Shown here in pieces: positions 9,550-64,000 of a stretch of 64,000 nucleotides of DNA. This DNA comes from an uncultured Ignavibacteriales bacterium. GTDB lineage: Bacteria > Zixibacteria > MSB-5A5 > GN15 > FEB-12. The notes under the pieces were generated by a model. That model was given only the letters and a program-made list of their open reading frames with translations. It was not told where the DNA came from and made no database searches. The translations under genes and the position numbers were made by a program. The stretch's first letter is position 1, and each line of letters begins with the position of its first letter. The stretch is from positions 52,503 to 116,502 of the forward strand of contig CAZAZQ010000001.1 of NCBI GenBank assembly GCA_964489705.1. Direction: 5' to 3'.

Positions 9550-9562
9550 TGCAATCGTCCTC

Positions 9563-10612: not shown

Positions 10613-10778
10613 AGTAAACCTCTTGTATTTCAGTTCATTCGGCACGTTATCTTCAATTCGTATTAATTGGATATAATACAGCCATCGCCGGACAAACACA
10701 AGCCATATCGTCGTCAGTCGAAAAATTATCCCCCACTTCAAGCGAATCTCGAGAGTACGCTATCAAGGGACAAGAAAA

Positions 10779-10818
10779 ACACAAAAAATCCGGCAGGTTC
10801 TTCGCAAGAACCTGCCGG
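10779..10818 (-). terminator. Rho-independent terminator at the end of the cytochrome operon
   Basis: On the minus strand: CCGGCAGGTTCTTGCGAAGAACCTGCCGG followed by ATTTTTTGTGTTTTT, 30 nt after the stop at 10849. Confidence 0.7.
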
Positions 10819-10848
10819 AGACTTGTTTCACAAAAGCTGGATTTTTCG

Positions 10849-13398
10849 TCAGGGAGTCGGGGGAACGTAGGGAGGGGTTTCATCCTCCTTAATCACTCCC
10901 TTCTCGACCAACGAGCGGTACCAGTTGGGATGGTGGTGCTCCGCCCACTCTTTGGTCACGTAGCCGTCTACCAACACCCGCCAGGTTCCCGGGTTAGCGA
11001 TGGTTCCCAAGTAGGCATGAGAGAGCACTCCGGCAATAAGGATAAAGCCGACCAAGTTGTGAATCGTCGATGTGACGCAAATCCAGGAAAGCGGGAAGGA
11101 CGACTTGAAAATCAACATCACGCCCGTTATCCCAATGATAATGCCGAAAAACGACGTATACCAGTAGAACAACTTCTGCCCGGCGTTGAAGCGACCGGCA
11201 GGGACTTCTCCTTTATAGCCAAGGTATCCGCCCAACCGTCGAACCCAATCAATGTCGTAGGAAGCAAACAAGGCATCCTTGAACCACAAGCCAATCCCCA
11301 AAATCGTCGTGATAATAAAGACAATCCCAGCAACAATATGGAACGTCAGCATTTGTTCCGCCGAGCGGAAAAGCAGGTCTTGCCAATTCGCCCAGTTAAA
11401 CGCCATAATCAGCCCTGATACCGATAGAATAATAAATGCCAGTAGCCGGAAAAGGTGTACCGACCGCTCGGTTGCGGAAAACCGCTTGACTTCGCCGGAA
11501 TACGGGACAAACGGAATCCGCTTGGGCCCGTAGCCATGGTAGTGTACCGTAATCAAGAAAATAACAAGGATGATAGAAACACTGACCAGCGGACTGAGAA
11601 TCTCTTGGTGAAACGAATTAATGGCAAAAGCAATGGGATTGCATCCTAACGCCCGCCCGATATGTCTCGTAACTGGCTTGCCGTCTTCTCCGTACAGATC
11701 GTAGACCCTGTCCCCTTTGAAGAAATGGGCATCCTTGGCGTGGCAATCCTGACAGCCGTTTGCCCCTAACGCCTCACGGGCGGGAGCGACATTGTGACTA
11801 ATAGAGTAGTTTACACACTCCGGTGTCCCATAGTCAAGCTCAGCTAAGTTTCCTTGCTCATCAAGGTGGTATACCTTCCCTCCCTTTACCAGAACCGGAT
11901 GAATTTGAGTAAAACGCTTGTTATCCTTCAAAGATTCCGCATACGCGTGCAACCCCGCGATAATTTCTTCTTTGCGGTTGACTTCAGGGATACCGTCATC
12001 ATTATCATCGGTGACTTTGTCAGAGAATAACTCCCACCCTTTTCCCTGTTCCTTCAACCACAGAGGGTAGACAATGCTGTCGACCAGATTTCCCCACCAA
12101 ATCACCACCATGCTGTTAAACGGATATATCTTATTTCCCACCCAACGCTCATATGCCGGTTTCCACTCGGCCTTTTCGCCAAAAGACGTGGCTTCGGGAG
12201 GATTAAAGTAAAATACTTGCTCGCCGGTTGTGGATTCAATCCCTTGGATAGTAGAGCGATGGAGCTTGGGAATGTGACATGACTCACAAGCAATGACTTT
12301 CAAATGAGAGGGTCTTATCTTGGAGTGACGAGGCACAGTCGCTCCCAAATATCCTTCCATATGACATTCTTCACACGTCTTTATCGTACCGTCAAGGCTG
12401 TCAGCAACCCGAGAAGAACTGGCGTTTCCTTTTGCAAACTGGTGGTCAGGTCCACTGGGGTGACAGGCGGCACAACTGATGTCTTGCCCGTTATGGACAT
12501 CGGGATTAAAAATATCATTCCACGAAAAACCGCGCTTCCGAGAATCGGTTTGCCCGTGGCAGAAAATGCAGTTATCGTCCGGTGGCGGCCAAGACATCTT
12601 TAAGGAAAGAGAACCGTCTTCGTTGAAAAACCGCCTGTTGTAAGTAACCGAAGGCTCATCGCCGTTTGCCACCGAGCCTTCGATAAGTCCCAACCGTGAA
12701 CCGGCAACTACCGCCCACTGGTAATTCCCCATTGTCAGTTGCTCAACCCGGGCATCATAATCGTACCCCTCCATATGGCAGATAAAACAATCCGCCTCAA
12801 CCACTCCGCTCTTATCCCAGTTGCTCTGATAGTAGTCGCCGTCCAGGGTGTTACGGAGCTCGGGGTTCTCGCTTAGATATTCATCATACCGATTCCCCTC
12901 TCTGTCATATTCCAAACCACCCCCACCGGGATGACATGCGCCACAGGGAGGAAGAGAGCTCTGCTGCGAAAAGCCGACAAAGTCATATACCGACAGATCA
13001 ATCTCTTCCTCAAAGTCATTATGTTTTTTGGCTAATTGCCGGTCATACATCGGGCACCACTTCCCCATCATGCCGTCGGATATTTGCCACGGTTTCCCCT
13101 CAGGAACGCCGAAAGTGTCGCTGACCACATCCCAGCCCATTTGGAAGTGGAAGCCGGAGGTAATCTCCTCGTAGTCATGACACATGCCGCAGGTCTGTTC
13201 AGTACTGAACGGCTGGTGGGCATTATCGCCGGTCATGGGGTTGATTTCGTCCCCGTTTTTATCCAAGAGGAAAATAGCCGGGTGCTGGCTCATTCCCGAC
13301 GCGGCAAACGAAAACACTAACGCCAGGACCATAACGCCAAGCAAGGGGATTTTCCTCCCGAAGAAAAAGCGTAAAGCGTGAAGAGAACTAATCACCAT
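10849..13398 (-). CDS. Fusion of an octahaem c-type cytochrome to a C-terminal membrane cytochrome-b-like domain (CbcL-like architecture)
   Basis: N-terminal TM/signal. 8 CxxCH (CGMCH, CGACH, CFICH, CIFCH, CAACH, CEECH, CESCH, CQDCH). The last ~250 aa have 4-5 hydrophobic helices with conserved His (FdnI/PhsC-like). Confidence 0.8.
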   Translation of the reverse strand: MVISSLHALRFFFGRKIPLLGVMVLALVFSFAASGMSQHPAIFLLDKNGDEINPMTGDNAHQPFSTEQTCGMCHDYEEITSGFHFQMGWDVVSDTFGVPEGKPWQISDGMMGKWCPMYDRQLAKKHNDFEEEIDLSVYDFVGFSQQSSLPPCGACHPGGGGLEYDREGNRYDEYLSENPELRNTLDGDYYQSNWDKSGVVEADCFICHMEGYDYDARVEQLTMGNYQWAVVAGSRLGLIEGSVANGDEPSVTYNRRFFNEDGSLSLKMSWPPPDDNCIFCHGQTDSRKRGFSWNDIFNPDVHNGQDISCAACHPSGPDHQFAKGNASSSRVADSLDGTIKTCEECHMEGYLGATVPRHSKIRPSHLKVIACESCHIPKLHRSTIQGIESTTGEQVFYFNPPEATSFGEKAEWKPAYERWVGNKIYPFNSMVVIWWGNLVDSIVYPLWLKEQGKGWELFSDKVTDDNDDGIPEVNRKEEIIAGLHAYAESLKDNKRFTQIHPVLVKGGKVYHLDEQGNLAELDYGTPECVNYSISHNVAPAREALGANGCQDCHAKDAHFFKGDRVYDLYGEDGKPVTRHIGRALGCNPIAFAINSFHQEILSPLVSVSIILVIFLITVHYHGYGPKRIPFVPYSGEVKRFSATERSVHLFRLLAFIILSVSGLIMAFNWANWQDLLFRSAEQMLTFHIVAGIVFIITTILGIGLWFKDALFASYDIDWVRRLGGYLGYKGEVPAGRFNAGQKLFYWYTSFFGIIIGITGVMLIFKSSFPLSWICVTSTIHNLVGFILIAGVLSHAYLGTIANPGTWRVLVDGYVTKEWAEHHHPNWYRSLVEKGVIKEDETPPYVPPTP

Positions 13399-13419
13399 AC
13401 AACTCCTTACATCAATACG

Positions 13420-16395
13420 TCATCGATAACCGAAAATCTCCGCATATATAATTAAAATAATGAGTGCCAAGCCTATCAGTAAAGCAATTGTCCCAAAAAC
13501 CCGAATGCCGTTGACTACAATCGGCGGTAACGGTTCGACCAAGTGTTTCTTGATTTCCCGCGATTTTACAAGCTGGGAGTATTCCCGGGGTCGGTCATGC
13601 TCCAACTCTTTAAGAGGAACGCGGCCGGTAAAGATAACCGTATCCATAGGGAATTTTTCCGGGCGGAAATGAGTATTGAAAAAGTGAACGGTAAAGATAA
13701 AACCGGTCGCCAATAGCGCTTCATCCGAGTGGATGATACTTGCAACGTTGATAATCCACCCCGGCAAAAAGCGGGTAAAGAACTCAGGGAACCACAACAT
13801 CAAGCCGGTCGCTCCGATAACGGCAACTCCCCAGAACACGGCGAAGTAGTCGAATTTCTCCCAGTATGTCCATCTGCCGTACGCCGGACGGGGACCTAAG
13901 CCCAAGAACCACTTAATCGTTGCTTTCAGGTCTTGCCAGTCGTTTTTGTTTGGGAGCATTGAGTTCTCGCTGAAGAGTATTTGTCTCCAGCTCTTTTTGC
14001 TCCGTCGCTTGTTATAAATCAACTCGCCTATGTGAGCAAAGAAATATCCGAAAGTCAAAATCGCACAAATACGATGAATGTATGCTGCTGACTCAAAGCC
14101 GCCCAACATACCAGACAACCATTTCGCCCAGCCCAAGTAAGAGAACTTCAGCGTCATGCCGGTCATCGCCAAGCCGAGAAAACTTACTACCATCGTGACA
14201 TGTAACACCGAATGGAACGGCTTGAACCGACGGTACTCCAAGCGTTCCATGCCGACCTGACGAAGTTCTTTATGCTTTTTCATCATCTGCCACGAACGAG
14301 GCAACCAGAGTAAGGTATGTGTCCCGGCTAATACAAACGTCACCACCAGCAGAATGGTCATAAACCAAAAGGTGTAGTAAAGAATCGGATACTTGGTACG
14401 ATCGTGGTGGGTGGCATGAGTCAAATAGCCGGCAAACTGACGATGCGAACCGGGGTGACATTGCCCACAGGTCTCAACGATATTTTGATGGGAGAGACGA
14501 GAGTTCGGATCATCCGGCGGGAGGATATCATGAGCGCCATGACAATTGTAGCACTTTGCCGCTTTGGCGTAGCCGAGTTTGGAGCTCTTGCCGTGAACCG
14601 TCTCGAAATACGACTCGGTCACATCTTCGTGGCAGCCGCCGCATTTCTCGAGAATCTCCTGACGGAAACGGTCGGTATCGACCCGCTCGATAGTATGGGA
14701 CTGGTGACAATTGGCACAGGTGGGCAGCGGCTTGTCCGTCTTTGCAACGGTGGGAGAGTGAATGCTTTTGGCAAATTTTTCGTAAATCCCTTTGTGACAC
14801 TGGGCACATGTTTTCGAAATATTGTGGGGGGCAACACTCGACGCTGAATCGCTCTTCGGCAGTTCATGGTGAGCGGTGTGACAATCGGTACACATAGCGG
14901 TCACCACCAAGCCGCTTTCCAGAAGCCCTTTCCCGTGGATACTGGAAGTATAATAATCCGTAACGCACACTTCCCCTTTCCTCGCCCGGCGTTTTCCCAC
15001 GGTCCCCGATGCAGTGTGACACTGACTGCACAGCGCCGGGACGTTGGTCGGGAACGTAGGGGATGATTGGTCTTTGTGTCCCTTCATGCCGTGTTTGCCG
15101 TGACAATCAATACAATCGGGGGCTTCGGGATCGCCGCGGTCGACCAGTTTGCCGTGGGTGCTGGTCATGAAAGTTGCCACCACCTCACTATGGCAAATGG
15201 AACAGTCTACTTTCGGGATAACCGTTGTACAGGGACGCTTCAGCCCCGGCGTGGCACCGGTATGACATTGGGCACAGGTAACGCTTCGATGGATAGAATT
15301 ATGAAACTCCACCGTATCGACGGAGAGCGAAACGGTATCGCCGTCAACCACTTTGAAGATATCCGGCTTGGCGTGACACTTCAGACACTCTTGATTCGAG
15401 ATGCCTTCCTTGTAGTATACCCGGCGGATTTGATGCGGAGAGTGACAATCGACACAAACCGGAACTTTGTGCGGTTCTTTTTCCCACAACTCTCCCCGAA
15501 TGACTTTTTTATGAACTTTTTCAATCTGCCCGTGACACTTTTGACAGGTGCGCGCGACATTGTCTCGATGAATACTTGACTGAGGGTCATTGTGGTTGCG
15601 GACATCATGAGCGGTATGACAATCGCTGCAAACCGCACTGACCATCAAACCTTTCTTAAACAGCCCTTCTCCATGGATCGACTGAGAGTAGTGAGAGAGG
15701 ATTGAATCTTCCGGGATGTCGTACTCTTCGGTAATCGGCGACCCCTCTTTATGGCAGCGTCCGCACATAAAGGGAATATTGAACTTTGCCACCCGCGCTT
15801 CAGGGGAGTGAGCACTGACAATATCGTGTGAGCCATGGCAATCCCAGCAACGCGGCGCCAATTTCGCGCCGGCGTGGACGGCTTTGCCGTGTAACGACTG
15901 GTCGTATTCCTTCGCGATTTTTTGGTGACAGCGAGAGCAATTGACCCCTCTCTCCCCGACATCTGAGCGGGAAGGCGACATAACGGTATGGTGCCCATGA
16001 CAATCCCAACACTGGGCGGCAGGTTGAGTGCTTGGCGGTACAATTTCTCCGTGAATACTGTGGGCATACTCCTCGGTGACGTCATCGTGACAAGTGCTGC
16101 AATCAACCGGTTCCACGTCCTCGTCGTGAGGATAATCTTCCGTCCCCGCCAAATCGGCATGGCATTCCACGCAGTCCATTCCGGCATGGACGGAAGAATC
16201 AAACGCCGCCGCCGAAACGTAAACAGAGAATTCCTCACCCAGACTATTGACGCCGGTTAGTTCTTCATCTTCATGGCAGGAGAGACAGGTTTCGTTATCA
16301 TCCTGAGCCGTCGCGGAACCTAAGGAAAAAACCAAGAAAAAGAAAACAGATGCGCTAAGGCATCTGAATCTTTTTACCATCCCAAGCCTTCGCAT
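13420..16395 (-). CDS. Fusion of a 21-haem c-type cytochrome to a C-terminal membrane cytochrome-b-like domain
   Basis: Signal peptide, 21 CxxCH motifs counted by eye, then about 330 aa with multiple TM helices (YTFWFMTILLVVTFVLAG..., HVTMVVSFLGLAMTGM..., IHRICAILTFGYFFAHI...). Confidence 0.8.
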   Translation of the reverse strand: MRRLGMVKRFRCLSASVFFFLVFSLGSATAQDDNETCLSCHEDEELTGVNSLGEEFSVYVSAAAFDSSVHAGMDCVECHADLAGTEDYPHDEDVEPVDCSTCHDDVTEEYAHSIHGEIVPPSTQPAAQCWDCHGHHTVMSPSRSDVGERGVNCSRCHQKIAKEYDQSLHGKAVHAGAKLAPRCWDCHGSHDIVSAHSPEARVAKFNIPFMCGRCHKEGSPITEEYDIPEDSILSHYSQSIHGEGLFKKGLMVSAVCSDCHTAHDVRNHNDPQSSIHRDNVARTCQKCHGQIEKVHKKVIRGELWEKEPHKVPVCVDCHSPHQIRRVYYKEGISNQECLKCHAKPDIFKVVDGDTVSLSVDTVEFHNSIHRSVTCAQCHTGATPGLKRPCTTVIPKVDCSICHSEVVATFMTSTHGKLVDRGDPEAPDCIDCHGKHGMKGHKDQSSPTFPTNVPALCSQCHTASGTVGKRRARKGEVCVTDYYTSSIHGKGLLESGLVVTAMCTDCHTAHHELPKSDSASSVAPHNISKTCAQCHKGIYEKFAKSIHSPTVAKTDKPLPTCANCHQSHTIERVDTDRFRQEILEKCGGCHEDVTESYFETVHGKSSKLGYAKAAKCYNCHGAHDILPPDDPNSRLSHQNIVETCGQCHPGSHRQFAGYLTHATHHDRTKYPILYYTFWFMTILLVVTFVLAGTHTLLWLPRSWQMMKKHKELRQVGMERLEYRRFKPFHSVLHVTMVVSFLGLAMTGMTLKFSYLGWAKWLSGMLGGFESAAYIHRICAILTFGYFFAHIGELIYNKRRSKKSWRQILFSENSMLPNKNDWQDLKATIKWFLGLGPRPAYGRWTYWEKFDYFAVFWGVAVIGATGLMLWFPEFFTRFLPGWIINVASIIHSDEALLATGFIFTVHFFNTHFRPEKFPMDTVIFTGRVPLKELEHDRPREYSQLVKSREIKKHLVEPLPPIVVNGIRVFGTIALLIGLALIILIIYAEIFGYR

Positions 16396-16440
16396 CTTCT
16401 CATCTGTCCCTATCGACCCAAATTCTCACGTTAATTTAGA

Positions 16441-16468
16441 GTCGTGCCGCTTTTCGGGGCGGCACGAC
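16441..16468 (-). other. Perfect 10-bp GC-rich stem-loop between the porin and 21-haem cytochrome genes
   Basis: GTCGTGCCGC-TTTTCGGG-GCGGCACGAC. No T-run on either strand, so it is probably an intercistronic RNA structure rather than a terminator. Confidence 0.5.
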
Positions 16469-16500
16469 TTCCCAAGGGAGGAGAATACCACAAGAGGAGG

Positions 16501-16938
16501 TCAAAAGTCAAATCTTATTCCTGAACGAATCAGAAAATATTTTCCCGATTCAATACCGTAAATGTAACCGGTATCGTCGGTCAAATCCGCGTAATCGACG
16601 TCCGCGGTTACGGTTACCCGTGGAGAGACTTTAAGTTCGGTTCCAAACGTCAGTTGCATGAGCTTGTAATCCAAATCGGAGTAGGTGTGCATTTCATTAA
16701 AAGTGAAATCCTGATGAGACAATGCTCCGTTGAGGCGAGAGGAAATGTCGGGCATGACGACCTCTTTTAACGAACCGGTCGACATATTGTAGTTTATCGT
16801 CGCGTGGAAACGAAGCTTACTCGTTGCCAGATAAGAACTTGTCAGGTAGACATTGTGAGCCTTGGACTCATAGTCCGCCATGGTGTACATGGAACCGTAG
16901 TGTTGATACAAAGTGTCCAAATCGCCATTGACACGCAC
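16501..16938 (-). CDS. C-terminal part of an MtrB/PioB-like outer-membrane beta-barrel (same frame as 16963..18675, separated by an in-frame TGA)
   Basis: Alternating beta-strand pattern. It ends ...IRSGIRFDF with a terminal Phe, the typical OMP C-terminal signature. Confidence 0.7.
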   Translation of the reverse strand: MRVNGDLDTLYQHYGSMYTMADYESKAHNVYLTSSYLATSKLRFHATINYNMSTGSLKEVVMPDISSRLNGALSHQDFTFNEMHTYSDLDYKLMQLTFGTELKVSPRVTVTADVDYADLTDDTGYIYGIESGKYFLIRSGIRFDF

Positions 16939-16962
16939 GGTGTCATAAAAGATATGGCCACC

Positions 16963-18675
16963 TCACCCGTCGAACAAAGCGACCGTCACCGGACCTCGGG
17001 ATTTATAGTAATTATAGCTGTATCCGGTCGTTACCGCAAAGCGCTGATTGGGCGTAACCGTAAGATTAACATTCGGTTGAAGCGAGAAGTGGTTCACGTC
17101 AAGAGAGTCGAGATCGCCGTTTTTGTCGTAGGTGGTACGAAGACCGAAATTAAAGGAATATTTCATGTCCGGTTTATACATCGCTTTGATTTCAAACCGG
17201 TGCAAATCTGTGGGGAAAGTCGTTATGTCCTGATACCGGAGGTCTTCCCGCTGATAGTAGAAAGAATAACCGTTCCATTTCGGCTCGAGAACATACCGTC
17301 CCATCGCTTCAAACAAGCCTTTCCCGCTGGTGAACGGGTCTTTTGTTTTCTCAAAGCGGTATTTGAACATGCCGGAGAATTTCATCCCCTTGCGATACCG
17401 AGCCTTCAGTTGGCCGATGAGCGTGGAAGAGGTCTTGTTGGCTCCCTGTTCGGGGTAATCGTAGCGTTTGATACTGTGGAAACCGCCCAAAAGCGAAAGA
17501 GAGAACCGCGGGTTCAACCGCATGTTCACTTCCACCGAGGCTTTGTTGTCCATTCTATCTAACGACGAGTAGCGGGTATAATCGAAATCGACCGAGTCTC
17601 CTTGCGGACGCCAGACCGGCAGGTCAATCAAGGTATCGTCGGCATTTCTTTTTACCACTGCCACCTTCGCATACAAGCGCGTCTTCGGGGAAAGCGGAAC
17701 GGTATAATTCACCGCCCCCGAAACGGCGTTGGTTGACAGCGAGGTCTTCTTGTTTTCCGCCTTGCTGTAACCGAAAGAACCGGCAAAACGCCCCTTACCG
17801 ACGTTGCCGTTTACTTTCACTTTGTGCGACATCTTCTCCGTTTCGGGATAGATGGAATAATTCACCGTGGTATCTTCGAAAATCATCCGAGAGCTGAATT
17901 CAGGACCGGCGCCGCCATGACCGGGGTGAGCGGCAGAGTCGTAGTAAATCATCAGATCATCGGCACTAGAGGCAAACTTGTGGTAGCCGAACATATACCC
18001 AAAATCGAAATTCCCAGCCTCAGCCTCTATCCCAGCATCAACCTGATGAGTCGCCTTGTCGATGCCAGTCGTTTGGGAGGCCAGGTGACAACTAAAGCAG
18101 TGATCGGAGGCGATTTTCTGCTCTTTCCCTTTTTCGAGAATAGAACGATGCGCCGCAATAAAGCGGACTCGGTTTTTTTCGGACAGAAGCAAACTTACTT
18201 TGGTGAGAATCTCTTTTCTGTCTTCGTAGTAATCGGCATTCGGGTCGGTTATCTCATGAGTGAGAATCTTTCCCCCCGGTGCGGAGGTCTTCCATTCCCG
18301 GGTTTCCATATTCTCCAAGAGGTCCTGCCCCTGCTTATGAATCAGGGAACGAAGCTGCAGAGAGACATTCAACCGGTCACCCTTGGTGGCGGTAAACTTT
18401 CCATCGATGTTGTACTCGTCGTAATAATGCCCGCTGAACGTATAGTAACCGTCACCTTTCAGGGCGTTGAAATCAAACATAAATTCCGGGAGAAACTCAC
18501 TGTTGCCGATGTTGTACTCCCCGACTTTACGGGTGTAGTCTTGAAAATCGGTATAATGTGAGCCGACCCAGAACCAGTAATTATAGACAGCTTCCTCATT
18601 CTCTTCCGCAGAAAGAGCCAGGGCAACAGAGAGGATGAGCAAGCCGGCAATGAGCAACATTTTCATCATCTTCAT
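16963..18675 (-). CDS. N-terminal part of an MtrB/PioB-like outer-membrane beta-barrel porin
   Basis: Signal peptide MKMMKMLLIAGLLILSVALALSA. 570 aa rich in Y/G/N/T amphipathic strands, with no OMP C-terminal signature of its own. It sits directly downstream of the decahaem gene, as in mtrAB/pioAB. It contains HCFSCH. Confidence 0.7.
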   Translation of the reverse strand: MKMMKMLLIAGLLILSVALALSAEENEEAVYNYWFWVGSHYTDFQDYTRKVGEYNIGNSEFLPEFMFDFNALKGDGYYTFSGHYYDEYNIDGKFTATKGDRLNVSLQLRSLIHKQGQDLLENMETREWKTSAPGGKILTHEITDPNADYYEDRKEILTKVSLLLSEKNRVRFIAAHRSILEKGKEQKIASDHCFSCHLASQTTGIDKATHQVDAGIEAEAGNFDFGYMFGYHKFASSADDLMIYYDSAAHPGHGGAGPEFSSRMIFEDTTVNYSIYPETEKMSHKVKVNGNVGKGRFAGSFGYSKAENKKTSLSTNAVSGAVNYTVPLSPKTRLYAKVAVVKRNADDTLIDLPVWRPQGDSVDFDYTRYSSLDRMDNKASVEVNMRLNPRFSLSLLGGFHSIKRYDYPEQGANKTSSTLIGQLKARYRKGMKFSGMFKYRFEKTKDPFTSGKGLFEAMGRYVLEPKWNGYSFYYQREDLRYQDITTFPTDLHRFEIKAMYKPDMKYSFNFGLRTTYDKNGDLDSLDVNHFSLQPNVNLTVTPNQRFAVTTGYSYNYYKSRGPVTVALFDG

Positions 18676-18684
18676 TGGCGCCTC

Positions 18685-19638
18685 CTATCGTGTTAATGCT
18701 GATCCCTGGCCTGATATGGTCTGCGAAGGCAGATCAGAGCCGTGGACTTCGGTGTGACATTGAGTGCACTTAGTCAAAAAGCCCTTCTTCCAGCCATCCG
18801 GCGTAGACGTGCCGTTTCGGCTCGGATCGAGGGGAACCGTAAAGTCACCGTCCACTCCTTCCACGGTAGCGTGGAAGTGCATCGGGTGGCAGTTCAAACA
18901 CAATGCCGGTTCGCTCTCTTTGAGCAGATTATCGGCGATCGAACCGTGCGGCGTATGACACACCATACAGTTCTCGTTAACCGGGGCGTGTTCGAACACA
19001 AACGGACCTTCCTTCTCGGCATGGCACGTAAAGCACAACTCCCGTTCCGGGTCGTCCAGAGCCGCAGTCCCTTGGGAACCGTGCAGGGCATGGCAATCCT
19101 CACAGCTTACCTTCCCTTCCGCTATCGGGTGGTGGGAAGGCATATAACTTGCTGACCGGACGTCACTATGGCAGTCGTAGCACAGCTCCGGCGTCTTCTT
19201 TTTGATGGATTGCGCAAACGTCCCGTGAATGGTATGACAGTCGGCGCATGTCACTCCCGCCGCACTATGGGCGGTAAATGACCATTCACCGAACTGGTGC
19301 CCGGTATGGCAGGTGAGGCACAGCTCTTTCCCGCCGCTTTGGTCATGATTCGCCGGGTTGATGATTAATGCCGGGTCGCCGTCTTCAACATGGGCGGCGG
19401 CGGAACCGTGGCATGACTCGCAGCTATTGTCCGCCAAACGCGAATTTTTGCTGAAATACACGCCATGAGGAGCCTGAGAAAAGGCTTCCACAATTTCATC
19501 GTGGCACCCCGCACAGACGTCATTCGGCACTCCAGCCGCAACCGCCGCCGAGGAGACAAACAGGCATCCCGCCAGCATCATCAGCCAGACCGTCAGGTTT
19601 GTTTTTTTGTTCGGACCGTCTCGATTCAATCGATACAT
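18685..19638 (-). CDS. Periplasmic decahaem c-type cytochrome, MtrA/DmsE/PioA-like
   Basis: 10 CxxCH in about 317 aa, with a signal/TM LTVWLMMLAGCLFVSSAAVAA. The start is probably the ATG at 19638 (GGAGGA 5 nt upstream); the tracked start is 19650. Confidence 0.8.
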   Translation of the reverse strand: MYRLNRDGPNKKTNLTVWLMMLAGCLFVSSAAVAAGVPNDVCAGCHDEIVEAFSQAPHGVYFSKNSRLADNSCESCHGSAAAHVEDGDPALIINPANHDQSGGKELCLTCHTGHQFGEWSFTAHSAAGVTCADCHTIHGTFAQSIKKKTPELCYDCHSDVRSASYMPSHHPIAEGKVSCEDCHALHGSQGTAALDDPERELCFTCHAEKEGPFVFEHAPVNENCMVCHTPHGSIADNLLKESEPALCLNCHPMHFHATVEGVDGDFTVPLDPSRNGTSTPDGWKKGFLTKCTQCHTEVHGSDLPSQTISGQGSALTR

Positions 19639-19656
19639 GTTTCCTCCCATAGTTAA

Positions 19657-19674
19657 TTAGTTAACGTTCACTAA
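19657..19674. promoter_or_regulatory. Near-palindromic operator-like site upstream of the decahaem gene
   Basis: TTAGTTAACGTTCACTAA (half-sites TTAGTTAAC / GTTCACTAA, 8 of 9 complementary). 15 of 18 nt identical to the site at 20365..20382. Confidence 0.5.
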
Positions 19675-19757
19675 CTTCCTTCCTTCAAACTCAATCTTCT
19701 TCTCATTTTCTTTGTAATCACAGAACTTTGCGATCAACCCCTTCCGACACACTCTCC

Positions 19758-20354
19758 TTATGCTTTCAACCCTCGCACGTAAATGGGAACGTTGTTCGCC
19801 ACTACTTCGGAGGGCTTATACTCTTTTCCTTGGAATCCCTTCCACAAAGTCTTCCCCAACGAGCAGTCGAAGACCATCCCGATAAAACAGCGGGCGGTAA
19901 TATCGTTGCGCTTTTTTATAATTTTTTTCTGTTTGTATAATTTGTTCAATTGCTTGACAAGGAACCGGACGTAGGCACCACGGATAATGTCATACACCGC
20001 TTTGGCTTTTTCGTGGCCTCCCAATGCCGAAAAAAGCAAATGGCGGTAGAGATCCGCATGGGCGGTGAAAAAGTCGATAATATGATGAGCCAAGCTAAAC
20101 AGCAGGGTTTCGAGGTCATCTTCCTTTTCCAACCTTTTGAACAACCCTTCATAATCCAGGCGCGTTCCTATGGAGTCAAGCACCGCATCGTAAATGGCTT
20201 CCTTTGAGGGATAATGCCGGTACAACGCCGGCTCGGTAATCCCGCACGCCGCAGCCAGTTGTTTGATAGTTACTTTATCGTACCCTTGGAGGCTGAACAA
20301 GCGGGATGCTTCTTCAAGAATCTGCCTTTTTCTGTCCGTGACGGCTACTCTCAT
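19758..20354 (-). CDS. TetR/AcrR family transcriptional regulator
   Basis: N-terminal HTH: RKRQILEEASRLFSLQGYDKVTIKQLAAACGITEPALYRHYPSKEAIY. Confidence 0.9.
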   Translation of the reverse strand: MRVAVTDRKRQILEEASRLFSLQGYDKVTIKQLAAACGITEPALYRHYPSKEAIYDAVLDSIGTRLDYEGLFKRLEKEDDLETLLFSLAHHIIDFFTAHADLYRHLLFSALGGHEKAKAVYDIIRGAYVRFLVKQLNKLYKQKKIIKKRNDITARCFIGMVFDCSLGKTLWKGFQGKEYKPSEVVANNVPIYVRGLKA

Positions 20355-20364
20355 AGTTTTCCCT

Positions 20365-20382
20365 ATAGTTATTGTTCACTAA
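20365..20382. promoter_or_regulatory. Second copy of the operator-like site, upstream of the tetR start
   Basis: ATAGTTATTGTTCACTAA, 11 nt upstream of the ATG at 20354. It shares GTTCACTAAC with the site at 19657..19674. Confidence 0.45.
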
Positions 20383-20596
20383 CATATAAAGCCGGCTGTT
20401 ATTGTCAAGAATTAATTGCCGGCTCGGGGTACAATTTTGTGAATTTTCTCACATTTTTCCCTCAAAATAAGGGTAGATGAAATTCACTTTCATATAATTT
20501 AACCCATAGCACTCGAGGGCGAACTTTATTATACTACCGCCCGAAGGAAAGTTCATAATCGTGAAGATGAAACACTACTGATAGGACGAGGATAAC

Positions 20597-60038: not shown

Positions 60039-62396
60039 TTACCCTTTTAGTAGTTCCCTTTTCCGCCGGAAGTACGTCACCAGCGCTCCCAAAAGAATGA
60101 GGGTCGTGCCCACCCACACCAAATTGATTATCGGCTCTTTGGTAACGTCGAGAATCAGCGTTTCCGCTTCTTCGGGAGTATACAGCCCGGGAATACTGAC
60201 GACTACCGCTCTTTCTTCCACCAGAATCCGTTCGATGGAAATAACATACTCGTCATTCGGTCCGAAACTGGCAGGGAAATCCATAAAGCTCGAGCCGCCG
60301 TCTTCGGTTGGAACCGCCATCACGGCGGGGGCAAGGGTATCGGTCTGACCGTTATGTTCCACGACAATGTTTGCCGAGACCCGCATACTTCCTTGCATAT
60401 TGGCATGATCACCGATGGCAAAGCCGGTAAAGGTCAGAACATAGTCACCGAGCTTTTTCTTCTTCTCTTTGAGTAACTTCAGCCCTTCCGCACTCTCCGG
60501 CCGGCGCACTTGTTGGGGAGAAAAATACAAGTCGTACAGGAGTTCTTTTTTGATATAGGGCTTTTTCATAAAACCTTGCAAACGCTCGGAATAGTAGAGT
60601 TGGGGATAACCCTTCTCTACGGAGCCGTGATCCTTGAGTCCGATGATAAGCTTGTTCTTGGGGAAAGTGATGTCATGTTCCATCCCCAAGTACACTATTT
60701 CCCGTCCGAAGGCGGTACCCTTTCCTCCTTTCGGCAAAACCACCTGGGTGTTGGTACTGAACGCCGAGGAACCGAGAATGCCGATTATCATCACGCCGAA
60801 ACCGAAATGCGCAATAGGCGCTCCAGCAAGTTTCCACTGGCGGGGAAGAAAGCGGAACAAGAAAATAATATTCGAGGTTACACACATCGCCGCTACGGCA
60901 AAGAAAAGGAGATAGGAGGGGGTGCGTACTCCTACCAAGAGACTGAAAATCACCGTAACAAGCATCGCCACCAACGCCGGGAAGAGACGAGAGAACATTC
61001 CCTCCTTCATTAGATACATTGCCAGCGTCGTGACGACCACGACAAACAAAAGGGAAAAGACAATATCCGTTCCTGCCCAGAAATGAAGCAGACCGGCGAT
61101 TAAAAGAGAAGCTACGACACTTATCGCCAGCTTGAGGCGCCACTTCCGAGGGGTTTCAACCCCTCCGCCGCTGAAAGGAGACACGGTCAAGAGCAAGGCG
61201 AAAAGAATAGCAAAAGGCAGGGCAAAACTGTTATAGGTCGCCACATCCGCCGCCCGGGGCGTCATCCCGACCAGCGACGTCAACAACGGCAACGACGACC
61301 AGAATAATACTATCATGCTGAAGAGGAACAGAAGCAGCATCCCGATGAAGAGGAAGAACTCTCTCCCGTAGACATTATAATTCAAAGGGGAGCTTTCTAT
61401 CGCTCGAGAGCGCACTAAGAATAAACCCAGCGTCATAACGGTGAAGGCAATGAGGAAACCGACCAAATACGCATTACTGCCCAAATCAACAAAACTATGG
61501 ACGGAAAAATCTCCCAGTACCCCGCTCCGGGTAAGGAAAGTACCGTACACGACCAGCAGAAAAACGAAAGCCGCCAGAAGGAGGTTCGTCTTCCGCATAG
61601 CACCTTTGAGCCGCTCCAAGATAAGGCTGTGCACCAATGCCAAAGAAACAAGCCACGGCACCAACGAAGAATTTTCCACCGGGTCCCAGCCCCAATATCC
61701 GCCCCAGCCGAGGGTTTTATACGCCCAGTAGCCTCCCAAGATGTTCCCCGCCGCCAACATCAGGCTGGTTACCGTCACCCACGGGAAAGCGCGCTTAAGC
61801 CATTCGCGGTAGTCATTCTTTATCAATGCCGCCATCGCGATGGCAAATGGGACTCCAGCGGCGGCGTAGCCGACAAACATCACCGGCGGATGTACCACCA
61901 TCCACGGATCCTGCAACAAGGGATTCAAACCGGCACCGTCATGAGCATGGAACGGAAGCAACGCAAAGGGCGAAAGTTTGACCAACATCGTCAGAAAGAA
62001 AAGATTGACGAGGCTGTATACGGTCATCGCTATAGCCGTGTACTTCCCCCCGTTTCTGATGAGCACATAGCCAAAAATCACACTCAAAAACAGCCAAAGG
62101 AGATACGTCCCCTCTTGACCGCCCCAGAAGGAGGAAAGCAAGAAGAAAAAGGGAAGCGAACGATCGGAGTATTCGTAGACGTACTTGATGGAAAAATCAT
62201 GAGTAAAAAAGAGGTAAAACAAATAGATTACCGCCAAGAGGGTGGTGAAACCGAAAAGGTGGTAGCTTTTCAGGGCGAGATCGCGATACGAGTTATTACC
62301 GCGGGCGACCTTATAGAAGGCAAAGCCCGCTATGAGGTTGGCGGCAAAAGCGTACCAAATCAAAAGCTGTCCGGGAACGTGAGAGCCAACCATCAA
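60039..62396 (-). CDS. ccmF: Cytochrome c maturation haem lyase CcmF
   Basis: Many TM helices, the WWD motif WGGYWGWDPVENSSL, and a ~200-aa C-terminal soluble extension with a final TM. Confidence 0.9.
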   Translation of the reverse strand: MMVGSHVPGQLLIWYAFAANLIAGFAFYKVARGNNSYRDLALKSYHLFGFTTLLAVIYLFYLFFTHDFSIKYVYEYSDRSLPFFFLLSSFWGGQEGTYLLWLFLSVIFGYVLIRNGGKYTAIAMTVYSLVNLFFLTMLVKLSPFALLPFHAHDGAGLNPLLQDPWMVVHPPVMFVGYAAAGVPFAIAMAALIKNDYREWLKRAFPWVTVTSLMLAAGNILGGYWAYKTLGWGGYWGWDPVENSSLVPWLVSLALVHSLILERLKGAMRKTNLLLAAFVFLLVVYGTFLTRSGVLGDFSVHSFVDLGSNAYLVGFLIAFTVMTLGLFLVRSRAIESSPLNYNVYGREFFLFIGMLLLFLFSMIVLFWSSLPLLTSLVGMTPRAADVATYNSFALPFAILFALLLTVSPFSGGGVETPRKWRLKLAISVVASLLIAGLLHFWAGTDIVFSLLFVVVVTTLAMYLMKEGMFSRLFPALVAMLVTVIFSLLVGVRTPSYLLFFAVAAMCVTSNIIFLFRFLPRQWKLAGAPIAHFGFGVMIIGILGSSAFSTNTQVVLPKGGKGTAFGREIVYLGMEHDITFPKNKLIIGLKDHGSVEKGYPQLYYSERLQGFMKKPYIKKELLYDLYFSPQQVRRPESAEGLKLLKEKKKKLGDYVLTFTGFAIGDHANMQGSMRVSANIVVEHNGQTDTLAPAVMAVPTEDGGSSFMDFPASFGPNDEYVISIERILVEERAVVVSIPGLYTPEEAETLILDVTKEPIINLVWVGTTLILLGALVTYFRRKRELLKG

Positions 62397-62833
62397 GCAC
62401 CCGTCCTGCCTGCATTTTCGTTATGCTTGCGGATGTCTTGAAATTCGTTACCCTCGCTGCCTTGATACTTGGAAGGACACTTGACCAGCATTTGTTCCGC
62501 CACAAAGGTTTCCCCTTCGCTTTTACCTTTGACGACTACCGAGGTCGCCTGATCGAAGTTGCCCGGGACTACCCCGTGGTAGACAACATGGAGCTTCTCG
62601 GCATGTTCTTTATCCGGCGCTTCCGCATCGTAGATGGTAAATTCCAAGCGGGATTCCTCGGTGTTATAGTACACGTTGTCGAAATCAATTTTCCCCATCA
62701 CCTGCACTGTCCGCGTAGCGGAGCGCGCTTCGGGGATGGAAACATACTTGACGGTCGTCTTCAAAAAGGCGCTGGCACCCCAGACGATAAACAACACGAT
62801 GACGACACCGCCGATGATATATTTCACTTTCAC
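62393..62833 (-). CDS. ccmE: Haem chaperone CcmE, Cys-variant (CxxxY in place of HxxxY)
   Basis: N-terminal TM, an OB-fold body, and the C-terminal LVKCPSKYQG where proteobacterial CcmE has the haem-binding His. GTG start. Confidence 0.8.
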   Translation of the reverse strand: MKVKYIIGGVVIVLFIVWGASAFLKTTVKYVSIPEARSATRTVQVMGKIDFDNVYYNTEESRLEFTIYDAEAPDKEHAEKLHVVYHGVVPGNFDQATSVVVKGKSEGETFVAEQMLVKCPSKYQGSEGNEFQDIRKHNENAGRTGA

Positions 62834-62943
62834 TTCATTTTCTCCTCAAGCTTTTTGACTTTCTTGTCAAGCCTCAGGAGGAAGACAAAAATGCCTGTCC
62901 ATACTACGAGCGTGACAATCAGGGCAATATAGTTTCCGTCCAT
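62830..62943 (-). CDS. ccmD: Small haem exporter protein CcmD-like (37 aa, below the ORF-track cutoff)
   Basis: My own translation: MDGNYIALIVTLVVWTGIFVFLLRLDKKVKKLEEKMK. One TM plus a basic tail, placed exactly between ccmC and ccmE, with its stop overlapping the ccmE start. Confidence 0.55.
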   Translation of the reverse strand: MDGNYIALIVTLVVWTGIFVFLLRLDKKVKKLEEKMK

Positions 62944-62947
62944 ATCG

Positions 62948-63604
62948 TTACTCCTCACCTTCCACCTGATATCGTTTCAATACCGCAATTCGATACGCCA
63001 CTCGGTACATCCAGAGAAATACCGAGGTAAACGCGGCAAGCGACAAGATGAAAATCCAGCGCACCGTGGTGCCCATCGTAGACTCCAGCTCTTTGTTGAC
63101 GATAGAGTCGGTCGGATGCAACGACGGCAAGACGCGCGGCATCACAAAAATCAAGAACGGCACCGTCACGAACGCAAAAATAGCGTAAACCGCCGCCAAG
63201 GCGGCTCTCTTTTCTTCCACGCCGACCGCTCCCCGCAACGCAAAATAGGCTCCATAGATTAACAAGAGAATAAAGATAGAAGTTTCCCGCGGATCCCAAT
63301 TCCAGAACGAGCCCCAGGTGACTTTGGCGAAAATCGAACCGGTGACGGTCGCCAACAGGCAAAACATCAGCCCCAAGGCAGCGGCATTTGCCGCTTTATC
63401 GTCTTCTTTCAACCGCTTGGTCATTAAGTAGCGGAGCGAGAAAAACATCGACATGGCAAAAGCAATCACACTTATCCACGCCATCGGGATATGGTAATAG
63501 AATACCCGGCTGGCTTCACCAATCAGCTGCTGGGGAGCCGGCGTGATAAAACTCAAGACGATAACCGCCGCCATGGCAAGGTACAAAAGACTCTTCCACC
63601 ACAT
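62948..63604 (-). CDS. ccmC: Haem exporter protein CcmC
   Basis: WWD motif WGSFWNWDPRETS. MWWKSLLYLAM resembles the E. coli CcmC N-terminus, so I prefer the start at 63604; the tracked ORF starts at 63661. Confidence 0.85.
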   Translation of the reverse strand: MWWKSLLYLAMAAVIVLSFITPAPQQLIGEASRVFYYHIPMAWISVIAFAMSMFFSLRYLMTKRLKEDDKAANAAALGLMFCLLATVTGSIFAKVTWGSFWNWDPRETSIFILLLIYGAYFALRGAVGVEEKRAALAAVYAIFAFVTVPFLIFVMPRVLPSLHPTDSIVNKELESTMGTTVRWIFILSLAAFTSVFLWMYRVAYRIAVLKRYQVEGEE

Positions 63605-63709
63605 ACACTGTTTTCGTTTCGTTCTCAAAAAACGCTGTAAATTATACAGCAATAATCCCAATACGCAACAATATTTACTCTTTCAGTCGTCTTTTTATAG
63701 CGGAGCCGG

Positions 63710-64000
63710 CTACTCCTGCCAGACAAATTTGAACAACATGAGCGAGCCGACGACCATAACCACCGCATAAGCAATGAGAAACTGTATCTCCGTTTGCAGA
63801 TCCCCCAGCGCCGCCCCGTCAAAGATTTTTTCAGTAGCAACCACCAAAACCATTAGCAACGGCATCAGGATGGGAAAAGAGAGAACCGCAAATAACGCGC
63901 CTTTGACCGAGGCTTTGGCGATGATTGCCGCCACCAACGTGGTGGCGCTGCATAAACCGACCACCCCCAAGACCAAAACAATTAAAAAAGAAAACCAGCC
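63710..64000 (-). CDS. ccmB: Haem exporter permease CcmB, 3-prime part (5-prime end beyond window)
   Basis: The hydrophobic C-terminal region ...FPILMPLLMVLVV...LIAYAVVMVVGSLMLFKFVWQE lies upstream of ccmC. The ORF is open to the window edge. Confidence 0.7.
   Translation of the reverse strand, partial: GWFSFLIVLVLGVVGLCSATTLVAAIIAKASVKGALFAVLSFPILMPLLMVLVVATEKIFDGAALGDLQTEIQFLIAYAVVMVVGSLMLFKFVWQE

What the first reader, a model, noticed from the sequence alone, without database searches (positions are those of the whole stretch)
10849..20382. Porin-cytochrome extracellular electron transfer operon with 39 c-haem motifs, adjacent to a TetR regulator
The minus-strand order is tetR, an MtrA-like decahaem (10 CxxCH in ~317 aa), an MtrB-like ~715-aa beta barrel, a 21-haem c/b fusion and an 8-haem c/b fusion, followed by a strong terminator at 10779..10818. 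This is the logic of MtrAB/PioAB/MtoAB conduits: a periplasmic decahaem inserted in a porin. A membrane quinol-interacting module is supplied here by cytochrome-b fusions, as in Geobacter CbcL, rather than by CymA. No outer-surface MtrC-like cytochrome is encoded in the operon. The ccmBCDEF genes at 60-64 kb provide the maturation system. The direction of electron flow (metal reduction or Fe(II) oxidation) cannot be read from sequence.
Basis: partly seen in the sequence, partly recalled or inferred. Interest (0 to 1): 0.65.

Follow-up and report, generated by a model that had tools for sequence, protein, structure and literature searches.

The report
Selenium- and haem-bearing outer-membrane electron conduit

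Summary
The gene order and the 39 CxxCH motifs are confirmed. The "~715-aa barrel" is really two same-frame ORFs split by TGA at 16963-16965, and it holds a 40th CxxCH. That TGA is a selenocysteine codon. All 67 homologous loci that reach the position have TGA, never TAA or TAG. Each is followed in frame by 140-165 conserved residues ending in an outer-membrane beta-signal. A covarying SECIS hairpin lies downstream, and a model built without the window finds it once in 64 kb (E = 1.8e-11). NCBIfam places the pair in the GSU2203 decahaem and GSU2204 "CXXCH-containing (seleno)protein" families. The decahaem matches MtrA (6r2q_A, E = 1e-43). Models give a 26-strand barrel whose best structural match is MtrB (6r2q_B). 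The haem motif and the Sec column each sit at the tip of an extra-long surface-side hairpin. Two CbcL-type multihaem-c/FdnI-like-b fusions supply the quinone link. A TetR gene, a promoter-like site and a terminator flank the operon. This is a new member of a catalogued but functionally uncharacterised family. The role of the barrel's haem and Sec, and the direction of electron flow, remain inferred.

The parts
20381..20408 (-). Sigma-70-like promoter candidate upstream of tetR (TTGACA-16-TATGTT).
   Evidence: 10 of 12 matches. This is a consensus match only.
19758..20354 (-). TetR-family regulator, the first gene of the conserved tetR-decahaem-barrel core.
   Evidence: PF00440 at E = 1e-16. 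An orthologue at 42-69% identity lies directly upstream on the same strand in 52 related loci.
18685..19650 (-). Periplasmic decahaem c-type cytochrome, MtrA/DmsE-like, GSU2203 (OmcK) family.
   Evidence: 10 CxxCH. NF041028 scores 336.8 bits against a cut-off of 325, and TIGR03508 scores 237.6 against 192.2. It matches 6r2q_A at E = 1.1e-43 over residues 44-310. Homologues have a signal peptide and no conserved lipobox. A decahaem gene lies directly upstream of the barrel in every locus that extends far enough upstream.
16501..18675 (-). Outer-membrane 26-strand barrel seleno-haemoprotein of the GSU2204 family. It has 724 codons including Sec-571, and was read by gene callers as a 570-aa and a 129-aa ORF.
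   Evidence: NF041027 scores 526 bits against a cut-off of 350 over profile positions 3-580 of 580. The AF2 model of the N-part has pLDDT 90.1 and pTM 0.82, and its top Foldseek hit is MtrB 6r2q_B at E = 2.4e-10. The C-terminal beta-signal ...IRSGIRFDF lies only beyond the TGA.
18085..18099 (-). The barrel's single c-haem attachment motif, C193-F-S-C-H197, at the tip of the extra-long hairpin between strands 7 and 8.
   Evidence: Among the 266 family sequences held, each that carries the motif has exactly one CxxCH. It is the most conserved loop of the protein, scoring 0.726.
16963..16965 (-). In-frame TGA read as selenocysteine (residue 571), in the motif FDG-U-GGH.
   Evidence: TGA is present in 67 of 67 homologous loci and TAA or TAG in none. 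It is also present in a locus of about 25% identity (L072). Cys occupies this column in rare full-length homologues.
16928..16946 (-). Core hairpin of the bacterial SECIS element: stems 16940-16946 and 16928-16934 with apical loop CGUGC. A longer lower stem reaches back towards the UGA.
   Evidence: 88% of cells are paired against 70% in shuffles (0 of 500 shuffles reach it), and 6 of 7 pairs show compensatory changes. A covariance model built without the window hits 16914-16965 at 46 bits, E = 1.8e-11, and the next hit scores 8 bits. The MFE is -18.9 kcal/mol.
13420..16395 (-). Inner-membrane fusion of 21 c-haem motifs with a C-terminal 5-6-helix cytochrome-b domain.
   Evidence: 21 CxxCH. 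PF01292 scores 32.6 bits against a cut-off of 30.1. The crude helix count is 5. Related genes with 19 or 21 haems and 5-6 helices occur in many related loci.
10849..13398 (-). Inner-membrane fusion of 8 c-haem motifs with a FdnI-type dihaem cytochrome b (CbcL architecture).
   Evidence: 8 CxxCH. TIGR01583 scores 148.3 bits against a cut-off of 115.85. It matches 1kqf_C (FdnI) at E = 9.9e-20 over residues 639-839. The crude helix count is 6.
10789..10819 (-). Intrinsic terminator closing the operon.
   Evidence: 14-bp stem with 8 GC pairs, 3-nt loop, TTTTTTGTGT tail.
60039..64000 (-). System I cytochrome-c maturation genes: ccmF 60039-62396, ccmE 62393-62833, ccmD 62830-62958, ccmC 62948-63661, and a ccmB 3' part from 63710.
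   Evidence: Pfam hits for CcmF and CcmC and the ORF layout. CcmD, CcmE and CcmB are assigned from size, order and sequence features only.

Best explanation
The locus is a TetR-controlled operon for a trans-envelope electron conduit of the GSU2203/GSU2204 (OmcK-type, MtrAB-like) family.

Shown:
- A Sec-exported, MtrA-homologous decahaem is encoded next to a 26-strand barrel with the MtrB fold.
- The barrel mRNA carries UGA-571 followed by a SECIS hairpin, so full-length protein requires selenocysteine insertion.
- The strands that complete the barrel and the beta-signal lie only downstream of the UGA.
- The barrel has one invariant CxxCH.
- Two inner-membrane proteins fuse multihaem c domains (21 and 8 motifs) to FdnI/HydC-type cytochrome b, as in CbcL.

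Inferred:
- The b domains exchange electrons with the quinone pool.
- The tethered multihaem chains carry the electrons across the periplasm. The 21-haem chain is probably long enough to do this without a soluble shuttle.
- The decahaem sits inside the barrel, as MtrA sits in MtrB.
- The barrel's own c-haem (surface loop 4) and selenocysteine (surface loop 11) form the cell-surface redox site that MtrC supplies in Shewanella.

The direction of electron flow and the natural substrate are not determined.
For: Parts and counts:
- Gene layout and motif counts.
- Family assignments above curated cut-offs: NF041028, TIGR03508, NF041027 and TIGR01583.
- MtrA homology at E = 1e-43.

Selenocysteine:
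- The top 120 homologues all stop at ...FDG.
- TGA is present in 67 of 67 loci, with a conserved in-frame continuation ending in a beta-signal.
- The C-terminal part is found only as stand-alone 98-157-aa ORF calls.
- The SECIS hairpin covaries. A covariance model built without the window hits it once in the window. It meets all four published bSECIS criteria (PMC13188914).
- Cys sits at the Sec column in rare full-length relatives.

Fold:
- The Cys-form model has 26 strands, pLDDT 81.6.
- The window N-part model has pLDDT 90.1 and the same strand layout.
- MtrB 6r2q_B is the top hit for both.
- 12 of 29 members hit PF11854.

Topology:
- The CxxCH and the Sec column are each at the tip of an unusually long hairpin on an odd-to-even strand connection.
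- All even-to-odd turns are 2-5 residues long.
- In MtrB the tight turns are periplasmic and the loop between strands 1 and 2 is on the surface (PMC7198977).
- Surface loops are more conserved (0.513) than strands (0.454) or periplasmic turns (0.378).

Operon and context:
- The tetR-decahaem-barrel core is conserved, while the flanking c/b modules vary.
- The quinone module matches FdnI at E = 1e-19 and has the CbcL architecture (PMC6295460).
- GSU2203 and GSU2204 were 2.4-2.7-fold up with hematite in Geobacter (PMC4070692).
Against: - No selA, selB, selD or tRNA-Sec lies in the 64 kb, so the host's Sec machinery is assumed.
- The window barrel does not itself hit Pfam MtrB_PioB. The family profile finds no MtrB by sequence in the PDB.
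- No model coordinates were available. The distances between the barrel haem, the Sec and the decahaem's last haem are therefore unknown. Hairpins 7/8 and 21/22 lie on opposite walls of the barrel.
- Haem attachment to the barrel's CxxCH is inferred from the motif and the nearby Ccm system, not shown.
- No experimental function exists for any family member beyond expression data.
- Some distant relatives have Gly or Lys at the Sec column, so the chalcogen is not needed by the whole superfamily.
Confidence: 0.8

Rival explanations
1. This is a plain MtrAB/PioAB/MtoAB-type conduit. The barrel is only an insulating sheath. Its CxxCH and Sec serve folding, assembly or protection from oxidants rather than electron transfer or catalysis.
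For: The barrel has the MtrB fold and is paired with a decahaem. MtrAB alone can reduce soluble substrates through the exposed haem A10 (PMC7198977). Relatives with Gly or Lys at the Sec column exist.
Against: About 218 Sec-type clusters stand against 8 full-length forms, only 3 of them with Cys. The CxxCH is conserved across the whole family. The haem loop and the pre-Sec segment are the most conserved parts of the protein. A costly Sec insertion system maintained at down to about 25% identity argues for a chemical role. Most members have no other Cys that could pair with the Sec.
Confidence: 0.12
2. The conduit works inwards. It takes electrons from Fe(II), reduced sulfur, an electrode or a partner cell, as PioAB and MtoAB do. 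The FdnI-like b domains then act as quinone reductases in a redox loop.
For: There is no MtrC-like surface cytochrome, as in PioAB and MtoAB (from knowledge of those systems). In formate dehydrogenase-N, FdnI passes electrons from the periplasmic side to menaquinone, and the window protein matches it over its full length.
Against: CbcL has the same b-domain type and is described as a quinol oxidase for outward transfer (PMC6295460). The Geobacter orthologues are induced with Fe(III) oxides. Nothing in the sequence fixes the direction.
Confidence: 0.3
3. The TGA is a true stop or a pseudogene lesion. The 570-aa and 129-aa products are separate, or the barrel is defective.
For: Gene callers annotate two ORFs. 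No Sec machinery is present in the window.
Against: TGA is present in 67 of 67 loci and TAA or TAG in none, always in frame. Residues between the TGA and the first possible start codon are conserved. The SECIS hairpin covaries. The beta-signal and strands 22-26 lie only downstream. Cys occupies this column in homologues. NCBIfam curates the family as a selenoprotein.
Confidence: 0.02

Closest known systems
GSU2203 (OmcK) / GSU2204 pair of Geobacter sulfurreducens (NCBIfam NF041028 and NF041027)
   Same: Both window proteins pass the curated cut-offs. The shared features are a decahaem next to a barrel with one CxxCH and a Sec/Cys position. The family is listed as a selenoprotein family in reviews (PMC9312934, PMC13188914).
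   Different: The host here is a probable Zixibacteria lineage. The operon also carries a TetR gene and two c/b fusion genes. Direct similarity to the Geobacter proteins themselves was not measured; only the family profiles were used.
MtrCAB of Shewanella (PDB 6R2Q)
   Same: The decahaem is homologous to MtrA (E = 1e-43). The barrel has 26 strands, and MtrB is its best structural match (TM 0.63-0.72).
   Different: There is no MtrC. The barrel carries a c-haem motif and a selenocysteine on surface-side hairpins. About 11-12% identity to MtrB, and the window protein does not hit PF11854. The quinol link is a CbcL-type fusion rather than CymA.
PioAB / MtoAB Fe(II)-oxidising conduits
   Same: These are two-component systems of a decahaem and a barrel, with no surface cytochrome gene.
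   Different: To my knowledge those barrels have no CxxCH or Sec. Their direction of flow is known, and here it is not. Phylogenetic placement against PioA and MtoA was not done.
CbcL (GSU0274) inner-membrane quinol oxidase
   Same: The architecture matches: N-terminal multihaem c followed by six helices of a HydC/FdnI-like dihaem b (PMC6295460).
   Different: The haem counts are 8 and 21 rather than 9. There are two paralogous modules in one operon with the outer-membrane conduit. Sequence similarity to CbcL itself was not tested.
Cyc2 fused cytochrome-porin of Fe(II) oxidisers
   Same: It works on the same idea: an outer-membrane barrel polypeptide that carries its own single c-haem.
   Different: From knowledge, Cyc2 is a much smaller barrel with the haem at the N-terminus, and has no decahaem partner and no Sec. 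Here the motif lies between strands 7 and 8 of a 26-strand barrel.
Geobacter Pcc clusters (orfR-ombB-omaB-omcB)
   Same: A TetR-family regulator gene heads an operon for a porin-cytochrome conduit.
   Different: Pcc uses an 8-haem periplasmic cytochrome, an unrelated porin-like protein and a surface 12-haem lipoprotein (PMC4245776 abstract). None of these is present here.

Membership tests
GSU2204 family CXXCH-containing (seleno)protein (NF041027) | Profile score at or above the curated cut-off, over the full length of the 'part 1' model. | tested here: met
   526.1 bits against a cut-off of 350, profile positions 3-580 of 580.
GSU2204 family CXXCH-containing (seleno)protein (NF041027) | A single conserved CxxCH. 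| tested here: met
   CFSCH at residues 193-197. Family sequences that carry the motif have exactly one.
GSU2204 family CXXCH-containing (seleno)protein (NF041027) | Sec (UGA) or Cys at the conserved position, with in-frame continuation to the end of the barrel. | tested here: met
   TGA at 16963-16965. 67 of 67 loci have TGA. Cys occupies this column in P0236, P0263 and P0299.
GSU2204 family CXXCH-containing (seleno)protein (NF041027) | Selenium and haem actually incorporated in the protein. | not testable with these tools
   This needs 75Se labelling, mass spectrometry and haem staining.
Bacterial SECIS element (consensus model quoted in PMC13188914) | Apical loop of 3-9 nt and upper stem of 4-16 bp. 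| tested here: met
   5-nt loop CGUGC and a stem of 6-7 bp.
Bacterial SECIS element (consensus model quoted in PMC13188914) | G in the first two loop positions, usually followed by G or U. | tested here: met
   Loop C-G-U-G-C. G28 is invariant in 49 sequences.
Bacterial SECIS element (consensus model quoted in PMC13188914) | 16-37 nt between the UGA and the apical loop, and MFE of -7.5 kcal/mol or lower. | tested here: met
   23 nt of spacing. MFE of -16.1 to -18.9 kcal/mol. The shuffle z-score of the single sequence is only -0.62, so the support comes from covariation and from the independent covariance-model hit.
DmsE/MtrA decahaem family (TIGR03508) and GSU2203 family (NF041028) | Ten CxxCH and profile scores above the curated cut-offs. 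| tested here: met
   10 motifs. 237.6 bits against 192.2, and 336.8 against 325. 6r2q_A at E = 1.1e-43.
DmsE/MtrA decahaem family (TIGR03508) and GSU2203 family (NF041028) | Inserted in the partner barrel. | not testable with these tools
   Only adjacency is shown: the two genes are 9 nt apart, and the pairing is conserved in every locus that extends far enough upstream.
MtrB/PioB outer-membrane barrel (PF11854) | Pfam profile match. | tested here: not met
   The window N-part has no PF11854 hit at E <= 0.01. The family profile finds no MtrB in PDB sequences. 12 of 29 family members do hit, and P0236 scores 41.9 bits against a cut-off of 23, so the relationship is distant.
MtrB/PioB outer-membrane barrel (PF11854) | 26-strand barrel fold. 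| tested here: met
   26 long strands in the full-length Cys-form model. The window N-part model contains 21 of them. 6r2q_B is the top hit at E = 4.8e-22 and 2.4e-10, while TonB-dependent receptors score far lower.
MtrCAB-type complex | Surface decahaem (MtrC/OmcA family) partner. | tested here: not met
   No other ORF in the 64 kb has 2 or more CxxCH. Elsewhere in the genome was not tested.
CbcL-type quinol/quinone oxidoreductase | N-terminal multihaem c domain fused to a C-terminal six-helix HydC/FdnI-like dihaem b. | tested here: met
   For the 849-aa protein: 8 CxxCH at residues 70-549, TIGR01583 at 148.3 bits against 115.85, 1kqf_C at E = 1e-19, and 6 predicted helices. For the 991-aa protein: 21 CxxCH, and PF01292 just above its cut-off.
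CbcL-type quinol/quinone oxidoreductase | Sequence orthology to GSU0274. | not tested
Cyc2 fused cytochrome-porin | N-terminal haem motif followed by a small barrel, with no decahaem partner. | tested here: not met
   The motif is at residue 193, between strands 7 and 8 of a 26-strand barrel, and a decahaem gene lies upstream.

The most novel reading that the evidence does not exclude
The barrel is itself a catalytic or terminal redox protein: an outer-membrane seleno-haemoprotein. The two long surface hairpins lean over the pore, so that the loop-4 c-haem receives electrons from the decahaem's last haem. The loop-11 selenocysteine is either the haem's distal axial ligand or an adjacent nucleophile. 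To my knowledge, His/selenolate ligation has not been reported for a natural cytochrome. As a nucleophile, the Sec could act on sulfur, selenium, tellurium or metal substrates at the cell surface. On this reading the barrel replaces MtrC with a single built-in active site.
Probability: 0.3. Interest if true: 0.8.

Novelty: new member of a known kind. Interest (0 to 1): 0.55.

Why it matters
Porin-cytochrome conduits underlie microbial iron, manganese and electrode respiration and electron uptake. The canonical picture has an inert barrel, an inserted decahaem and a separate surface cytochrome.

This locus, its 68 relatives in species-representative genomes and two more distant loci looked up separately show a widespread variant. 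It occurs in Zixibacteria, Acidobacteriota, Desulfuromonadales and Thermodesulfobacteria. In it the barrel carries a haem motif and an almost always selenium-encoded residue on its outer face, and no surface cytochrome gene is linked.

The family is catalogued as a selenoprotein, but its function is uncharacterised. Gene callers routinely split it into two 'hypothetical' ORFs, so surveys of extracellular electron transfer probably under-count or misread it.

The analysis gives concrete targets for work in the cultivable relative Geobacter sulfurreducens (GSU2204): C193, C196, H197 and U571 (window numbering) and the SECIS hairpin.

Tried and rejected
- Merged barrel sequence. I tried to hand the U-to-C merged barrel, and the stop-containing translation, to the representative search and to structure prediction. 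I modelled a natural full-length Cys homologue and the window's N-part instead.
- Rfam. There were no hits at gathering thresholds in the whole window, and none at E <= 10 around the TGA. Curated families do not cover this SECIS.
- Single-sequence folding of the SECIS region is not significant on its own (z = -0.62). The support comes from covariation.
- A sequence search of the barrel profile against the PDB found only chance CxxCH matches.
- Second read-through. The 21-haem and 8-haem ORFs lie in the same frame, separated by a single TGA at 13420-13422. I rejected a second read-through because the frame relation is not kept in related loci such as L008 and L069.
- Lipoprotein decahaem. The window decahaem contains the sequence LAGC. 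I rejected a lipoprotein reading because no Cys is conserved there in 59 homologues.
- His before the CxxCH. I asked whether this His tracks the presence of Sec. It is only partial: H in 171 and K in 30 Sec-type clusters, and never H in the 8 full-length forms. This is too confounded by phylogeny to use.
- No full-length Cys form exists among close relatives.
- Archaeal origin. The HMG-CoA synthase/thiolase/DUF35 trio suggested it, but I rejected it because of the outer-membrane barrel, the Ccm system I genes, the type VI secretion genes and the Zixibacteria-labelled homologues.
Full report
**1. Observation**

- a TetR-family regulator, 19758-20354;
- a 321-aa protein with 10 CxxCH, 18685-19650;
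- a large beta-rich protein, 16501-18675;
- a 991-aa protein with 21 CxxCH and a C-terminal cytochrome-b domain, 13420-16395;
- an 849-aa protein with 8 CxxCH and a cytochrome-b domain, 10849-13398.

A 14-bp GC-rich hairpin with a T-run lies at 10819..10789, and a promoter-like site lies at 20408..20381. ccmF, E, D, C and part of ccmB lie at 60039-64000. No other ORF in the window has two or more CxxCH.

- The 'barrel' is interrupted by an in-frame TGA at 16963-16965. Before it lie 570 codons, and after it 153 codons in the same frame.
- The barrel contains a CxxCH of its own (CFSCH, residues 193-197), so the operon has 40 motifs.

**2. The TGA encodes selenocysteine**

NCBIfam names the N-part a 'GSU2204 family CXXCH-containing (seleno)protein, part 1'. 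It scores 526 bits against a cut-off of 350 and covers the whole profile.

- The best 120 homologues among 5.8 billion proteins are all 560-597 aa long and end in ...ALFDG.
- I fetched 68 loci from species-representative genomes, mostly Zixibacteria. In all 67 that reach the position, the next codon is TGA, never TAA or TAG.
- Each TGA is followed in frame by (G/A)(G/A)H... and 140-165 conserved residues. These end in a typical outer-membrane beta-signal (...RSGxxxDF).
- The C-part is found in databases only as stand-alone 98-157-aa ORF calls.
- A locus at about 25% identity (L072) shows the same FFDG-TGA-AGH arrangement.
- Rare full-length distant relatives have Cys at exactly this column (P0236, P0263, P0299). 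Others have Gly or Lys.
- Of the clusters held, about 218 are of the Sec type and 8 are full length.

**3. SECIS element**

An ungapped alignment of 49 sequences, starting at the TGA, shows a hairpin 17-19 nt downstream.
- 88% of cells are paired, against 70% in shuffles (0 of 500 shuffles reach it).
- 6 of 7 pairs show compensatory changes.
- One pair reads AU in 25 sequences, GC in 13, UA in 8 and CG in 3, with no mismatch.
- Slid controls give 18-43% pairing.

The loop is CGUGC, with G28 invariant. Spacing, loop, stem and energy meet the published bSECIS model (PMC13188914).

A covariance model built from the 48 other loci hits the window once, at 16914-16965 (46 bits, E = 1.8e-11). The next hit scores 8 bits. 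Rfam has no match.

**4. The barrel**

A natural full-length Cys homologue (P0236) was modelled with pLDDT 81.6 and pTM 0.78. It shows 26 long strands. The window's own N-part, modelled with a 114-sequence alignment, has pLDDT 90.1 and pTM 0.82. It has the same layout through strand 21.

Foldseek puts MtrB (6r2q_B) first for both models, at E = 4.8e-22 (TM 0.65/0.72) and E = 2.4e-10. TonB-dependent receptors follow far behind. By sequence the link is weak:
- the window protein has no PF11854 hit;
- the family profile finds no MtrB in the PDB;
- 12 of 29 family members do hit PF11854.

In both models the CxxCH sits in the six-residue turn of the longest hairpin (strands 7/8: 170-190 and 197-220). 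The Sec/Cys column sits at the tip of the other extra-long hairpin (strands 21/22).

Both are odd-to-even strand connections, and every even-to-odd turn is 2-5 residues long. In MtrB the tight turns are periplasmic and the loop between strands 1 and 2 is on the surface (PMC7198977). Both motifs should therefore face the cell surface.

Surface loops are on average more conserved (0.513) than strands (0.454) or periplasmic turns (0.378). The haem loop (0.726) and the pre-Sec segment (0.672) score highest. This is unusual for an outer-membrane protein and suggests a structured, functional cap.

The mature protein has no Cys other than the two of the CxxCH. A selenylsulfide redox pair is therefore unlikely.

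**5. The partners**

The decahaem:
- passes the GSU2203 and DmsE/MtrA cut-offs;
- aligns to MtrA (6r2q_A) at E = 1.1e-43;
- has an ordinary signal peptide;
- lies directly upstream of the barrel in every locus that extends far enough upstream;
- is preceded by a TetR gene in 52 loci.

The flanking inner-membrane modules vary between loci. They include 19/21-haem proteins with 5-6 helices, 8-haem with 6, 11-haem with 5-6, and 6-haem with 3.

The 849-aa protein's C-terminus matches E. coli FdnI over its full length (E = 9.9e-20). It also passes the formate-dehydrogenase gamma cut-off. Together with its N-terminal haems, this is the architecture described for CbcL (PMC6295460).

**6. How it most likely works**

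Shown: the parts, their families, the Sec decoding signals and the fold.

Inferred:
- The b domains exchange electrons with the quinone pool.
- The tethered multihaem chains carry electrons across the periplasm. Ten haems span about 80 Å in MtrA, so a 21-haem chain is probably long enough to need no soluble shuttle.
- The decahaem is held inside the barrel.
- The barrel's own haem, helped or ligated by Sec-571, is the surface-exposed end of the wire and takes the place of MtrC.

Haem attachment is assumed. From knowledge, System I needs only a CxxCH in an exported, unfolded chain, and ccm genes are present.

Direction and substrate are open. FdnI-type subunits reduce quinone in formate dehydrogenase, yet CbcL is described as working outwards. 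GSU2203 and GSU2204 rise 2.4-2.7-fold with hematite (PMC4070692).

Hairpins 7/8 and 21/22 are on opposite walls of the barrel. Each extends some 8-10 residues beyond its neighbours, and MtrB's outer aperture is about 15 Å.

**7. Comparison and novelty**

The pair belongs to the GSU2203/GSU2204 family.
- GSU2203 is named OmcK.
[quoted passage not shown] The latter cites Zhang & Gladyshev 2008.

FeGenie already reported porin-cytochrome operons in Zixibacteria (PMC7005843). This is therefore a new member of a known kind. It is not a canonical MtrCAB, PioAB, Pcc or Cyc2 system.

As far as my searches show, three things are not in the literature:
- the mapping of the haem motif and the Sec to two surface hairpins of a 26-strand MtrB fold;
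- the near-universal use of Sec rather than Cys;
- the reading that the barrel itself supplies the terminal redox site.

**8. Limits**

- No Sec machinery is in the window.
- There is no experimental evidence for selenium, haem or function.
- No inter-site distances could be measured.
- Placement of the decahaem relative to MtoA and PioA was not done.
- The organism is inferred from the labels of homologues.

Noticed in passing
window 30201-51843 (minus strand): A type VI secretion gene cluster. It includes TssC (40907-42337), a VgrG-like spike (38520-40289), TssG (35528-36439), a TssK/VasE-like protein (33988-35439) and a PAAR protein (50764-51843). ClpV appears as two overlapping ORFs (43926-45380 and 42826-43929), which suggests a split or frameshifted ATPase.
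   Followed up: partly
window 62393-62833 (minus strand): The CcmE-like ORF carries ...VKCPSKYQG. This is a Cys-x-x-x-Tyr motif where proteobacterial CcmE has its haem-binding His. From knowledge, this variant is described for archaea and sulfate reducers.
   Followed up: no
window 7988-10741 (minus strand): An HMG-CoA synthase, a thiolase and a DUF35/OB-fold protein lie in a row, directly downstream of the operon's terminator. This is the arrangement typical of the archaeal acetoacetyl-CoA thiolase/HMGCS complex, here in a bacterium.
   Followed up: no
window 13420-13422: The 21-haem and 8-haem genes are in the same frame, separated by a single TGA and 21 nt. The frame relation is not conserved in related loci such as L008 and L069, so this is taken as coincidence rather than a second read-through.
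   Followed up: yes
window 59759-59765 (minus strand), upstream of 58694-59728: CTTTGAC lies just 5' of the release factor 2 ORF, which has PCRF and RF-1 domains and an apparent TTG start. This is the canonical prfB programmed +1 frameshift site.
   Followed up: partly
related loci, e.g. L007 5382-6896, L019 11358-12872, L040 11261-12772: Many related loci carry a protein of about 505 aa with 6 CxxCH and 3 predicted helices beside the barrel gene. The window does not. Its layout recalls ImcH, which has three N-terminal helices and seven CxxCH (PMC6295460). This was not tested.
   Followed up: no
L074 6731-7039 (Acidobacteriota MAG, Cys-form barrel): In the Cys-form locus the decahaem-barrel pair is preceded by an ArsR-type HTH regulator instead of TetR, and no c/b fusion gene is adjacent.
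   Followed up: no
window 3073-5208 (plus strand): A sigma-54-dependent activator with an N-terminal TPR array. There is no obvious link to the operon.
   Followed up: no
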